A DNA stretch of 64,000 bases from Escherichia coli O127:H6 str. E2348/69 (GCF_000026545.1 NC_011601.1); one strand, 5' to 3'. Shown: positions 1 to 3,000, counted from the stretch's first letter. A program made the numbers.

Positions 1-3000
1 AGCGCGCAGCTTTCCGAGGTCACCGGTGCTGCACAGGTGGTAGTGGCGCATTTTGCTTCTGACGGCGCGGGGGCCGCTTGTCCCATTGACGCCATCACGC
101 TGCGTACAATTTCTTCAATCTGTTTTTGATCCATGATGTGTTATCTCCGCGTCATCAGAAGAACAGTGACGGATCGCCCGCCCGTTTGGTCAGGCGACCG
201 TTTGCCATAATGCCCATGCTTTCCAGCCAGCGTTCAAACTCCGGTGACGGGCGCAGGTTGAGTAACTGACGCACAGTGGCGGTGTCGTGGAAGGCCGTAG
301 TCTGGTAGTTGAGCATGATGTCATCACCCAGCGGCATCCCCATGATGTAGTTGCAGCCTGCGGTGGCGAGCAGGATCATCAGGTTTTCGTTGAGGTTCTG
401 GTCAGCGTCAGCGTGGTTGGTGTAGCAGCAGTCACAGCCCATAGAGATGCCGCTCAGCTTGCCCATAAAGTGATCTTCTAAGCCAGCACGGATAATCTGC
501 CGGTCGTTGTAGAGATACTCTGGCCCAATAAAGCCGACTACGGTGTTGACGATAAACGGATCGTAATGACGTGCCAGCCCGTAGTTACGCGCTTCCATCG
601 TTACCTGATCTGCGCCGAAGTTAGCGCCCGCCGATAGCGCAGAACCCTGCCCGGTTTCGAAGTAGAGGCAGTTTTCCCCGGCGATACGGTTGAACTCCGC
701 GCCCACTGCGCGCGCTTCGTCGAGCATCGCCAGCTCTACGCCAAACTCTTTCAGCCCTTTTTCACTGCCGCAGATACTCTGGAAAATCAGCCCGCCCGGC
801 GCACCGCGACGGATCGCTTCGATCTGGGTGGTGACGTGCGCCAGTACGCAGCCCTGGGTTGGAATATTGAATTTGTCGATCACGCCATAGATGGTATCCA
901 GCACGCGGCTTAAGTTTTCCACGTCGTCAGTCACCGGGTTAACGCCGATCACCGCATCGCCCACCCCGAAAGAAAGCCCTTCGTAGATTTGCGCGGCGAT
1001 ACTTTGCACGTCGTCGCGGGTATCGTTTGGCTGCAAACGGGCGCTGAAGGTGCCCGGAATACCGATGGTGGTATTGGCCTTTTTGATCACCGGCATTTTC
1101 TTCGCGCCATAGATCAGGTCCGCGTTGGAGCAAATCTTCGCTACCGCCGCGACCACTTCCGAGGTCAGCCCTTTGCGGGTAAAGGCAATGTCGTCCACGC
1201 TGGTTTCATCGCTCAGCACATACTCACGCAGTTCGCTGATGCTCCAGTTTTTAATCTGGTTGTAGGCCGTTTCGTTAACGTCGTCCTGAATCAGTCGCGT
1301 CACGCAGTCATCTTCATAGGCAATCACCGGATTATTGCGGATGTCCGCTACGGTCATTTCCGACAACACCTGCTTTGCCGCCACGCGCTCTTGTGAGCTT
1401 GCCGCTGCAACGCCCGCCAGCACATCCCCCGAACGCAGTTCGTTGGCTTTAGCCAGCACCTCTTTTACATCCTTAAACTGATATACATTGCCGAACAATG
1501 TGGTCTTTAGTTTCATAAGTCGTTCCCTCAGGAAGGAAATGCGAGTGATTTCACCGTCACCGGCACAACCGATCCGCCAAAAAGAGGCGTACCAATGTCG
1601 ATATAGTCCCCCGCGCGGACAATCACTTCGTCAATGACTGCCAACGGGAGTTGTTGTAGCTGTGGGCGCAACAACATGCCCAGAGCTTTACCAAAGTCCT
1701 GCCCGGCCACCACCAGCAGGGGATGCGGATTCGGAAAACGCGCGACGAAATCGACCAGCGCGTTGATGACCGTTAGTACCGCGGCGTAACGCACAGGCAG
1801 CGAGGCGGGAAGCGCCAGCACGTACGCGTCAGTTTTGGGATCAAGATCCAGTTGAATTAGCGCTTGTTGCCAGGCACTCACCAGATCCGTTTCATCAATT
1901 GGGATCGCCACCGGCAAATTGCGCAGCGGCAGTTGTACGCCCTCCAGCCAGATTGTGCTGCCAGAGAGCGAAAGGGTATGTGCACCCGCGCCAATCACCG
2001 TGGCGCGTACGGTTTGCGCCGGAAACTGCACGTTCATCTCACGCAGACGAGGATGCTCATGCAGCGCCGTTGCCAGAAGCGGGCCAATATCGGCAAAACA
2101 GAACGGGTCAGCGGGCTGGTGGCGATAACATTCGCCCACGCCGCCAGAAAGCGTAATGATTTCGGGCGTAACACCTGCGGGCAGCAAACCGGTTTTCATT
2201 AATGCCTGCGCGAGCGGCGAGAGCGTTCCGTCAATCACTTCGACAATCAGCTCTGCCATCCGGCGGGTAACCTGCACCAGCTGCGCGCCGGTCAGCGAAC
2301 GGGCGTCAGTGCCTGCACCGAAGCACTCATCCACTATCATCTGCCCCGGTTTATGAGCGTAAACCACGCGCCCCTGGCTGTCGGTTTCCAGCAGGCGACC
2401 GCCGACGTTGAGGCAAGCGGTGCCGCTGATTTTTCCGGCATCAAACAGGGCGTAGTTCGCGGTGCCACCGCCGATATCGATATTCAGGACCCGACACAGC
2501 CGTTGTTCAGAAAGGGTTTGCGCCCCGGCACCGTGACCGGCGATCACGGATTCGAGATGCGGTCCAGCGCTGGCGACGACAAAATCGCCCAGCGACCGGG
2601 AGAGGGCCATCACCGCCGGGCGAGCGTTGCGGGTTTTTGCGCTTTCACCGGTGATAATGATGGCACCAGAATCAACGCTTTCCGGCGCAATGCCCGCAGC
2701 CTGATATTGCTTGAGGATTAAGGTTTTCAGTTCCGCTTCTTTTAAACCACCCTGTTTATCGACCTGTCTCTTGATCAGATCTCCTGATCAAGAGACTTCA
2801 TCACCAGGTAACCCTCAACCATATCCTGAAGTCTGAACCAGCCATCCCACATGACTACCCAACCGGGGCGACCGGTGCGTTTGCTGTCATGCCATCGCCC
2901 CAGTTTCGCCAGTTTCAGACAGGCCCATTTCAGTGTCGGCATCTGTGACGGAAGCGGTTTTCCTTCCAGCTTAACCCACAGCAGTTTCCACTCTGTCGGC

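What the first reader, a model, noticed from the sequence alone, without database searches (positions are those of the whole stretch)
2764..2796. Extended palindrome with Dam GATC sites at the IS end that holds the transposase stop codon
The inside-end-like terminus ctgtctcttgatcagatct is followed by cctgatcaagagac, forming a 13-bp-stem inverted repeat with three GATC sites. In IS50 the inside end is Dam-regulated and overlaps the transposase C-terminus. The same arrangement here suggests conserved methylation-coupled control, with an added hairpin that is not part of the canonical IS50 end as I recall it.
Basis: partly seen in the sequence, partly recalled or inferred. Interest (0 to 1): 0.3.

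Follow-up and report, generated by a model that had tools for sequence, protein, structure and literature searches.

The report
ISEc13 inside end with conserved hairpin
The palindrome is the built-in "inside end" of ISEc13, a catalogued Tn5/IS50-like insertion sequence sitting in the eutA gene of E. coli E2348/69; the only new detail is that relatives conserve this end hairpin at the DNA level, and its function is untested.

Summary
Window 2764-2796 holds a perfect 13-bp-stem, 5-nt-loop inverted repeat with three GATC sites, and the transposase stop codon lies inside it. It is the inside end of a 1550-bp ISEc13 copy (2764-4313, transposase on the minus strand). That copy is 100% identical to ISEc13 copies in EPEC E2348/69 and is inserted in eutA with a target duplication.

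The first 19 bp are identical to the IS50/Tn5 inside end, and the stop codon sits at the same end positions. IS50-like Dam sensitivity is therefore a reasonable inference from homology, but it is untested.

The palindrome is not target DNA. Removing the IS restores intact eutA, and every ISEc13-family copy examined carries the palindrome.

A subterminal inverted copy of the end tip (stems 9-14 bp, loops 5-16 nt) is shared by a clade of IS50-group elements about 50% identical in protein. IS50 itself lacks it. The two codons of the inner arm are among only four codon columns in the whole gene with almost no synonymous variation, which indicates selection on the nucleotides. GATC number is not conserved across the clade.

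My best guess is a 3' stem-loop of the transposase mRNA, at modest confidence. The element is known, so interest is low.

The parts
2764..4313 (-). Complete ISEc13 copy (1550 bp; IS4 family, IS50 group) inserted in eutA
   Evidence: 100% identity over 1550 bp to copies annotated 'IS4-like element ISEc13 family transposase' in E2348/69. Flanks are eutA. Removing the IS and one repeat copy gives 200/200 identity to intact eutA in other E. coli.
2764..2782 (+). 19-bp inside end (IE), CTGTCTCTTGATCAGATCT
   Evidence: Unique in the window. Identical to the IS50R IE read from L015.
2766..2778 (.). Outer arm of the palindrome (IE positions 3-15)
   Evidence: pair I3
2779..2783 (.). Loop, ATCTC (IE positions 16-19 plus 1)
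   Evidence: fold
2784..2796 (.). Inner arm: subterminal inverted copy of the IE tip. On the minus strand it encodes K-S-L-D-Q of the transposase C-terminus.
   Evidence: Codons TCT and CTT are almost invariant across the clade.
2773..2789 (.). Three GATC (Dam) sites at 2773-2776, 2778-2781 and 2786-2789
2775..4148 (-). Transposase gene (457 aa), with stop TGA at 2777-2775 inside the IE
   Evidence: Tn5 transposase structures match at E = 6e-84. NF033590 scores 514 bits. The DDE and YREK residues are invariant in A2.
4295..4313 (-). 19-bp outside end (OE), CTGTCTCTTATACACAAAT, containing TTATACACA
4276..4301 (.). Second end-overlapping hairpin, CACAAATCCCC / GGGGATTTGTG (11-bp stem, 4-nt loop), covering OE positions 13-23
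   Evidence: I23; -22.5 kcal/mol, z -4.6. It is homologous to the inward-facing terminators of relatives.
2754..2763 (.). Target-site duplication, left copy GTTTATCGAC (9 bp plus 1 ambiguous base)
4314..4323 (.). Target-site duplication, right copy
4181..4206 (-). Leader region with TTGAAC (4206-4201) and one GATC (4184-4181). It corresponds to the GGAAC...GATCTGATC promoter region of IS50 and relatives.
   Evidence: sequence comparison only; called no promoter.
2790..2796 (+). AAGAGAC, a direct repeat of 4305-4311. Deletion between the two would leave exactly the 35-bp solo palindrome seen in other E. coli.
   Evidence: inference

Best explanation
Shown (about 0.97). The palindrome is the intrinsic inside end of ISEc13, a catalogued IS50-group insertion sequence, here inserted in eutA of EPEC E2348/69. 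The outer arm is positions 3-15 of the 19-bp transposase-binding end. The inner arm is an inverted subterminal copy lying in the last six codons of the transposase gene, and the stop codon sits in the structure.

Shown (about 0.8). This inverted copy is an ancestral trait of a clade of IS50-group elements and is under selection at the nucleotide level, so it is more than a by-product of protein coding.

Inferred from homology, untested. The end is 19/19 identical to the IS50 IE and carries its two GATC sites. Dam methylation therefore probably lowers use of this end, as it does in IS50. The third GATC is a by-product of the duplication.

Inferred mechanism for the hairpin itself (about 0.35). 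It acts as RNA. It would form a stable stem-loop (-21.6 kcal/mol) at the very 3' end of the part of the transposase transcript encoded by the IS. Every copy would then carry its own barrier to 3'-exonucleases and a structured 3' end, whatever DNA it lands in. It is not a canonical intrinsic terminator.
For: Identity: 100% over 1550 bp to ISEc13. Tn5 transposase homology. Empty eutA site at 200/200. Target duplication.

Intrinsic to the element: the palindrome is invariant in seven ISEc13-family copies of 91-100% identity lying in different flanks.

Clade conservation: 25 of 50 distinct IE tails from relatives of 38-57% protein identity have a stem of 8-14 bp reaching the tip. The NJ tree places ISEc13 basal to that clade, with hairpin-less Photorhabdus elements nested inside it. 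IS50 and other outgroups lack the hairpin.

Nucleotide-level selection: I compared 18 non-redundant genes (median pairwise protein identity 56%). Across 137 conserved four- or six-fold degenerate columns, median normalised codon entropy is 0.84. Only four columns fall below 0.15. Two of them are S452 TCT and L453 CTT, which form the inner arm.

Pairing rather than a site at fixed distance: loop length varies from 5 to 16 nt. Position 15 of the end and its partner differ together, G-C in ISEc13 and C-G in the V. parahaemolyticus element.

The neighbouring hairpin hp2 in relatives shows a compensatory T-A to C-G change that alters two amino acids. This argues that nucleic-acid structure is selected in this 3' region.

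Folding: z = -5.3 for the 35-nt hairpin, and the hairpin is kept in the 76-nt context.

Dam: Dam methylation of transposon ends is stated to inhibit transposase binding, with a citation to the Tn5 dam study (Yin, Krebs and Reznikoff 1988), in PMC3347997.
Against: No experiment or transcript data bears on the function. No U-tract follows the hairpin in either direction, so it was not called terminator-like. There is no Rfam match.

The right arm is fixed by transposase recognition, so true covariation is limited to one position. Mismatch types did not show which strand folds.

Some lineages lost the stem through synonymous changes and still look intact (L032, the Photorhabdus group, L055), so the hairpin is dispensable.

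Most of the stem lies in translated sequence, so ribosomes must melt it. Insertion sequences usually limit transposase expression rather than stabilise its mRNA.

The transposase is only about 40% identical to Tn5 transposase, so its sensitivity to methylation is assumed. The leader keeps only one of the two GATC sites found at the IS50-type promoter.
Confidence: 0.5

Rival explanations
1. No present function. The inverted copy is a historical accident, a foldback or quasi-palindrome event at the IS tip that created the C-terminal codons. It is then maintained passively, for example by hairpin-templated correction.
For: The inner arm is literally the end sequence read in the other direction, and it supplies the K-S-L-D residues. 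Several lineages have lost the stem without obvious damage to the ORF. No function has been demonstrated.
Against: The TCT and CTT codons are essentially invariant across genes whose other synonymous sites are near saturation: four outlier columns out of 137, all in the last 16 codons. The trait is retained from the base of a clade about 50% divergent in protein. A neighbouring hairpin shows compensatory change.
Confidence: 0.2
2. It acts at the DNA level. The inner arm is a second, inverted partial binding site for the transposase or a host protein such as Fis or H-NS. It would work as a decoy, an autoregulatory site or an architectural site at the inside end.
For: In ISEc13 the inner arm reproduces 13 of the 19 end positions. 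The position-15 co-variation is also expected if one protein reads both copies. The 35-bp solo form has two perfect 15-bp tips.
Against: In most of the clade only end positions 3-11 are copied, and the spacing varies by 11 nt. That suits pairing better than a composite protein site. From my own knowledge of the Tn5 co-crystal, the N-terminal domain contacts lie mainly further in than position 6, so a 3-11 copy is an incomplete site. hp2 has no similarity to the end yet is conserved in the same way.
Confidence: 0.15
3. It is a transcriptional insulator. The hairpin would stop or slow RNA polymerase crossing the inside end, either entering from flanking genes (antisense to the transposase gene) or leaving the IS. 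This would mirror the inward-facing terminator that relatives carry just inside the outside end.
For: The clade with the IE hairpin is the clade with an intrinsic terminator directly after the OE, which shows strong stem covariation and a T-run. The ISEc13 OE also has an 11-bp hairpin. The inward-reading RNA folds the IE hairpin with z = -5.6.
Against: There is no T-run after the stem in either direction, in ISEc13 or in relatives: TTCATCAC reading inward, and AG plus arbitrary flank reading outward. It was not called by the terminator scan. The co-occurrence with the OE terminator reflects one shared ancestry rather than independent events.
Confidence: 0.1
4. It is incidental target sequence next to the IS end.
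For: None found.
Against: The palindrome lies entirely inside the element boundary defined by the target duplication. The empty site in 5406 genomes lacks it. Copies in unrelated flanks all have it.
Confidence: 0.01

Closest known systems
ISEc13 (IS4 family, IS50 group), as annotated by NCBI PGAP in E. coli E2348/69 and many other genomes
   Same: Identical: 1550/1550 bp, with the same ends and transposase. This is a copy of that element.
   Different: Nothing in the sequence differs. Only the insertion site, eutA, is specific to E2348/69. The library search found no mechanistic literature on ISEc13: eight papers, each a single passing mention.
IS50R / Tn5 inside end
   Same: The IE is 19/19 identical, including its two GATC sites, and a third GATC lies within the next 7 bp in both. 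The stop codon TGA is on end positions 12-14. The transposase C-terminus overlaps the end. The OE carries TTATACACA, the DnaA-box sequence of the IS50 OE. Relatives make a 9-bp duplication. The transposase is a homologue with the DDE and YREK residues.
   Different: IS50 has no inverted subterminal copy; its best local stem is 5 bp and lies away from the tip. The transposases are only 39-42% identical. The ISEc13 leader is about 70 nt longer and keeps one of the two promoter-region GATC sites. The codon equivalent to the Tn5 inhibitor start M56 is GTT, which is not a start codon.
ISVa18 (V. cholerae) and unnamed Vibrio, Xenorhabdus, Alishewanella and Pseudoalteromonas IS50-group elements
   Same: They share the end-tip/inner-arm hairpin, GTCTCTTGA...TCAAGAGACag, with the stop codon at the same place. 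They also share the OE-proximal AAATCCC...GGGATTT hairpin.
   Different: Their IE is of the ACTTGTGATCAAGAGACAG type, with one GATC. Stems are mostly 9 bp with 13-16-nt loops. They have a second upstream hairpin (hp2) that ISEc13 lacks. Their OE hairpin is a full terminator with a T-run, whereas the ISEc13 version has no T-run.
3' stem-loops that stabilise bacterial mRNAs (REP-type) and rho-independent terminators
   Same: A stable, perfect stem-loop at the end of a transcription unit.
   Different: It has no U-tract. It overlaps the last codons, the stop codon and a protein-binding site. Any function is not shown.

Membership tests
IS4 family, IS50 group (ISEc13) | Transposase homologous to Tn5 transposase, with the DDE triad and the YREK motif | tested here: met
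   Tn5 transposase PDB chains match at E = 6e-84 over residues 6-453. NF033590 scores 514 bits against a cut-off of 160. D93, D193, E323, Y316, R319 and K330 are invariant in A2.
IS4 family, IS50 group (ISEc13) | Terminal inverted repeats starting 5'-CTG(T/A)CTCTT, element size 1350-1550 bp, direct repeats of 8-9 bp (table in PMC2266710) | tested here: met
   The ends are at 2764-2782 and 4295-4313. The length is 1550 bp. The flanking repeat is GTTTATCGAC, 9 bp plus 1 ambiguous base; relatives L011 and L012 show clean 9-bp repeats.
IS4 family, IS50 group (ISEc13) | Sequence identity to the named element | tested here: met
   100% over 1550 bp to features annotated ISEc13, with 27-30 places per E2348/69 chromosome. 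The ISfinder reference entry itself was not available to me.
IS50-type Dam-regulated inside end | 19-bp IE with two GATC sites that overlaps the transposase C-terminus and stop codon | tested here: met
   19/19 identity with the IS50R IE from L015, and the same stop position.
IS50-type Dam-regulated inside end | GATC sites in the transposase promoter region (GATCTGATC in IS50 and most relatives) | tested here: inconclusive
   ISEc13 has TTGAAC, then 15 nt, then TGATCTTC. That is one GATC where IS50 has two. The consensus scan called no promoter.
IS50-type Dam-regulated inside end | Methylation lowers transposase binding to the IE and lowers transposition, with higher activity in dam- hosts | not testable with these tools
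   This needs genetics or biochemistry. General statement and the Tn5 reference are in PMC3347997.
Rho-independent terminator | G+C-rich stem-loop followed directly by a U-tract | tested here: not met
   The stem is present, but neither strand has a T-run after it. The scan of 2500-4600 did not list it.
Miniature inverted-repeat derivative (MITE-like) of ISEc13 | Short non-coding element bounded by the IS ends, present at multiple sites with target duplications | tested here: not met
   A perfect 35-bp two-tip palindrome exists, but at only one locus, lldD-trmL, in all five genomes inspected. It has no clean 9-bp duplication.

The most novel reading that the evidence does not exclude
The end hairpin, together with the second hairpin hp2 25 nt upstream in relatives, could be a selected RNA structure in the last ~30 codons of the transposase message of a whole clade of IS50-group elements. 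It might act during translation. Ribosomes would slow while the C-terminal dimerisation and inhibition helix is still in the exit tunnel, giving the nascent N-terminal DNA-binding domain time to bind the nearby end in cis. This would be a co-translational 'window of opportunity' not described for the Tn5 family. Alternatively it could be a built-in 3' mRNA stabiliser. Either would be an undescribed regulatory layer in a very well studied transposon family.
Probability: 0.25. Interest if true: 0.4.

Novelty: already known. Interest (0 to 1): 0.2.

Why it matters
As it stands the finding matters little. It is one more copy of a named insertion sequence, and Dam control of IS50-type ends was worked out in the 1980s.

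There are two modest points of value. First, this copy inactivates eutA in the reference EPEC strain E2348/69. Second, the comparative result gives Tn5/IS50 researchers a cheap hypothesis to test. The inverted subterminal copy of the inside-end tip is retained from the base of a clade about 50% divergent in protein, and its two codons are among the only four synonymously frozen columns in the gene. If the structure tunes transposase mRNA stability or cis-action, it would add a regulatory element to a family widely used as a genetic and sequencing tool.

Tried and rejected
Terminator reading: the consensus scan finds no T-run after the stem on either strand.

Known RNA family: there was no Rfam match at E up to 1 over 2400-4700.

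Which strand folds: I looked for G-U against A-C mismatch asymmetry in imperfect stems of hp1 and hp2. There were too few informative cases, so this is inconclusive.

Mobile 35-bp MITE family: the perfect solo palindrome is at one locus only. The 33/35 hits annotated 'none' are IS remnants truncated by other insertion sequences.

Target duplication around the solo palindrome: none is recognisable, and K-12 has a different, longer sequence at that spot.

Dam as the reason for the palindrome: rejected, because the stem is conserved where GATC number is not.

Inhibitor-protein start equivalent to Tn5 M56: the codon is GTT.

Literature: there is no mechanistic paper on ISEc13. The IS4-family review does not mention end hairpins. 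Reznikoff et al. 2004, on comparative IS50 transposases, could not be retrieved.

A sigma-70 promoter for the transposase gene: none was called.

Full report
**1. The observation**

Window 2764-2796 reads CTGTCTCTTGATCAGATCTCCTGATCAAGAGAC. The arms at 2766-2778 and 2784-2796 are 13 nt, 100% complementary and 5 nt apart. GATC occurs at 2773, 2778 and 2786. This is the only place in the window with three GATC within 20 bp, against a mean GATC spacing of 244 bp.

It is the longest perfect short-loop inverted repeat in the 64 kb. Markov resamplings give 0.02 such stems of 13 bp or more per window. As RNA the 35-nt hairpin has -21.6 kcal/mol and z = -5.3. The minus-strand ORF 2775-4148 ends with TGA at 2777-2775, inside the terminus.

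**2. What it is**

The other end of the element lies at 4295-4313. On the minus strand it reads CTGTCTCTTATACACAAAT. The 1550 bp between the two ends are flanked by the direct repeat GTTTATCGAC.

The 457-aa product matches Tn5 transposase structures at E = 6e-84 and NCBIfam NF033590 at 514 bits. The DDE and YREK residues are invariant in an alignment with relatives.

The whole 1550 bp is 100% identical to features annotated 'IS4-like element ISEc13 family transposase'. E2348/69 chromosomes hold 27-30 places, and there are further copies on the E2348/69 plasmid record.

With its flanks, the segment matches only the three E2348/69 (O127:H6) assemblies, where the IS splits eutA. Deleting the IS and one repeat copy in silico gives a 200/200 match to intact eutA, and 5406 of 5426 genomes hold the uninterrupted site.

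The palindrome is therefore element sequence and not target sequence. The window is the EPEC E2348/69 chromosome.

**3. Comparison with IS50**

I read IS50R from a Tn5-bearing plasmid (L015). Its inside end is CTGTCTCTTGATCAGATCT followed by TGATCCCC. The ISEc13 end is therefore 19/19 identical, and the stop codon TGA falls on the same end positions (12-14).

IS50 also has a third GATC, at positions 21-24, but no inverted copy of its tip. Its best local stem is 5 bp and lies far from the tip.

The ISEc13 outside end keeps TTATACACA, the DnaA-box sequence of the IS50 OE (for the IS50 fact). It has T at position 4.

In the leader, IS50 and most relatives carry GGAAC/TTGAAC followed about 17-22 nt later by GATCNGATC. 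ISEc13 has TTGAAC, then 15 nt, then TGATCTTC, which is one GATC.

PMC3347997 states that Dam methylation of transposon ends inhibits transposase binding and cites the Tn5 dam study (Yin, Krebs and Reznikoff 1988). That ISEc13 behaves the same way follows only from sequence identity of the end. The transposases are about 40% identical, and the point is untested.

**4. Is the palindrome part of the element everywhere?**

Seven ISEc13-family copies or remnants of 91-100% identity, in unrelated flanks, were aligned: CFT073, O157:H7, strain A36, three plasmids and this window. All carry the identical 33 bp, except one decayed ColV-plasmid remnant with a single mismatch.

A search with the 35-mer finds the palindrome in 1837 genomes, with up to 31 places per genome.

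**5. Deeper relatives**

A plasmid tblastn search and one scan of species-representative genomes gave about 85 loci at 38-57% protein identity. Of 50 distinct inside-end tails, 25 have a perfect stem of 8-14 bp between the end tip and a subterminal inverted copy: GTCTCTTGA(TCAC)...(GTGA)TCAAGAGACag. Loops are 5-16 nt, and a few more tails have interrupted versions. Examples:

- V. parahaemolyticus: 14 bp, with its top pair C-G where ISEc13 has G-C.
- ISVa18: 10 bp, a bulge, then 3 bp.
- A Shigella pCP301 remnant: the same 13-bp stem, but with a loop change that destroys the middle GATC.

An NJ tree puts ISEc13 at the base of the hairpin clade. A hairpin-less Photorhabdus group is nested inside it. 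IS50, Alteromonas-, Legionella-type and other outgroups lack the hairpin. The simplest history is one gain followed by a few losses.

**6. Is it selected, or a by-product of coding?**

The inner arm encodes K/M-S-L-D/E. I compared 18 non-redundant genes of the clade (median pairwise protein identity 56%). There are 137 conserved columns with four- or six-fold degenerate amino acids, and their median normalised codon entropy is 0.84.

Only four columns fall below 0.15, and all four are in the last 16 codons. S452 (TCT in 17/18) and L453 (CTT in 18/18) form the inner arm. T442 (ACC) and L444 (CTT) form one arm of a second hairpin.

By contrast, the Leu codon three positions upstream of the inner arm uses all six codons, and the adjacent Ala codon uses three.

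The Photorhabdus group keeps the peptide (AKSVDLEI*) with other codons (AAA TCA GTT GAT) and has no stem. The peptide alone therefore does not force the nucleotides.

The second hairpin, hp2, is AAGGATGGTTT-7 nt-AAACCATCCTT and is 10-11 bp in Vibrio- and Xenorhabdus-type elements. It shows a compensatory T-A to C-G change in three elements, with Phe to Leu and Thr to Ala substitutions. ISEc13 lacks hp2 (2 of 11 pairs) but has the longest and tightest terminal hairpin.

I conclude that nucleic-acid structure at the 3' end of the gene is under selection in this clade. Variable loop length argues against a protein site at a fixed distance from the tip.

**7. Mechanism**

What is shown is the identity of the element, the anatomy of the structure, its conservation and the synonymous constraint. 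What follows is inferred.

(a) The GATC sites in the 19-bp end probably confer IS50-like Dam sensitivity. The third GATC merely comes with the copied tip. GATC number is not conserved in the clade while the stem is, so the palindrome is not explained by methylation.

(b) The hairpin most likely works as RNA at the 3' end of the transposase message. It would be a portable, stable 3' stem-loop that limits 3'-exonucleolytic decay and makes expression independent of flanking DNA. I put this at about 0.35.

It is not a canonical terminator. No T-run follows the stem on either strand, and nothing matches in Rfam.

The rivals are a passive relic (0.2), a second DNA site for the transposase or a host factor (0.15), a transcriptional insulator (0.1), and a translational pause promoting cis action (counted within the novel case). 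The mismatch spectra do not show which strand folds.

From general knowledge, cruciform extrusion by a 13-bp palindrome in duplex DNA is unlikely.

**8. Comparison with the known, and novelty**

The element is ISEc13, which is already catalogued. Its end is an IS50-type inside end. I found no mechanistic literature on ISEc13. The IS4-family review does not mention end hairpins, and I could not retrieve Reznikoff et al. 2004. I therefore cannot exclude that the hairpin has been noted before.

The conserved hairpin and its codon-level constraint are a small, apparently undescribed detail of a known system. Verdict: already known element, low interest (0.2). There is a testable side hypothesis, with probability about 0.25 that it is a real regulatory RNA structure and interest about 0.4 if true.

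Noticed in passing
L001 1501-1535 (E. coli BL21-Gold, lldD-trmL intergenic); also L002, L003, L096, L097: A perfect 35-bp 'solo' palindrome, CTGTCTCTTGATCAG-ATCTC-CTGATCAAGAGACAG, consists of two IE tips with no IS. It sits between lldD and trmL, inside G/C-rich palindromic repeat sequence. About 25 of 60 evenly sampled hits, roughly 800 genomes, carry it. K-12 MG1655 has a different sequence there. It is exactly what a deletion between the direct repeats AAGAGAC (window 2790-2796 and 4305-4311) would leave, but it has no clean 9-bp duplication.
   Followed up: partly
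window 4276-4301; L011, L012, L026, L038, L042, L043, L081 and others, first ~50 nt after the left end: Relatives carry a classical inward-facing intrinsic terminator directly after the outside end: AAATCCC..loop..GGGATTT followed by TTTTTGAAC. The stem covaries strongly between elements. It presumably blocks read-in transcription towards the transposase gene. ISEc13 has a related 11-bp hairpin (CACAAATCCCC/GGGGATTTGTG) overlapping OE positions 13-23, but with no T-run.
   Followed up: partly
window ~4207-4275 (minus strand leader): ISEc13 has about 68 extra nucleotides between the OE hairpin and the TTTTTTGAAC motif, which in relatives directly follows the hairpin. This accounts for its 1550-bp length and its 165-nt leader.
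   Followed up: no
L011, L012, L028, L037-L056 etc., ~85-50 nt before the right end: A second conserved hairpin lies inside the transposase coding sequence of relatives: AAGGATGGTTT-7 nt-AAACCATCCTT. Its codons are synonymously frozen, and L033, L055 and L056 show a compensatory T-A to C-G change. ISEc13 lacks it.
   Followed up: partly
window 2300-4800: This ISEc13 copy interrupts eutA (ethanolamine ammonia-lyase reactivating factor), next to eutH. Only the three E2348/69 assemblies have the insertion, so the eut operon of this reference EPEC strain is probably impaired.
   Followed up: partly
window 3228-3240, 3320-3338, 3383-3401, 3633-3645 (+ strand): Four terminator-like hairpins with T-runs (five scan hits, two of them overlapping at 3383) lie on the strand antisense to the transposase gene, inside its coding region. 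In total the scan found 7 sites on both strands, against 2.1 expected. They might stop antisense transcription entering from the inside end.
   Followed up: no
window 4295-4313: The natural ISEc13 outside end, CTGTCTCTTATACACAAAT, has T at position 4 like the inside end. From memory this also matches the engineered hyperactive Tn5 'mosaic end'. It differs from the IS50 OE at two positions.
   Followed up: no
window 3990-3992 (minus strand codon 53): The residue aligned with Tn5 M56, the start of the inhibitor protein, is Val encoded by GTT. ISEc13 therefore has no start codon at the homologous position for an Inh-like truncated protein.
   Followed up: partly
window 13659-13686, 39913-39939, 55939-55967, 60183-60210: These are other perfect 11-12-bp-stem hairpins in the window. 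For example, AAAACCCTCTGTAGTAACAGAGGGTTTT at 60183 looks like a bidirectional terminator.
   Followed up: no
L009 ~1981-2000 (plasmid pSUH-1) and L001 1481-1500: Two independent ISEc13-type ends abut the same kind of G/C-rich palindromic repeat...CCCTCTCCCTGAGGG| and ...CCCTCTCCCTCAGGGAG|. This hints at a preference for inserting into such repeats.
   Followed up: no
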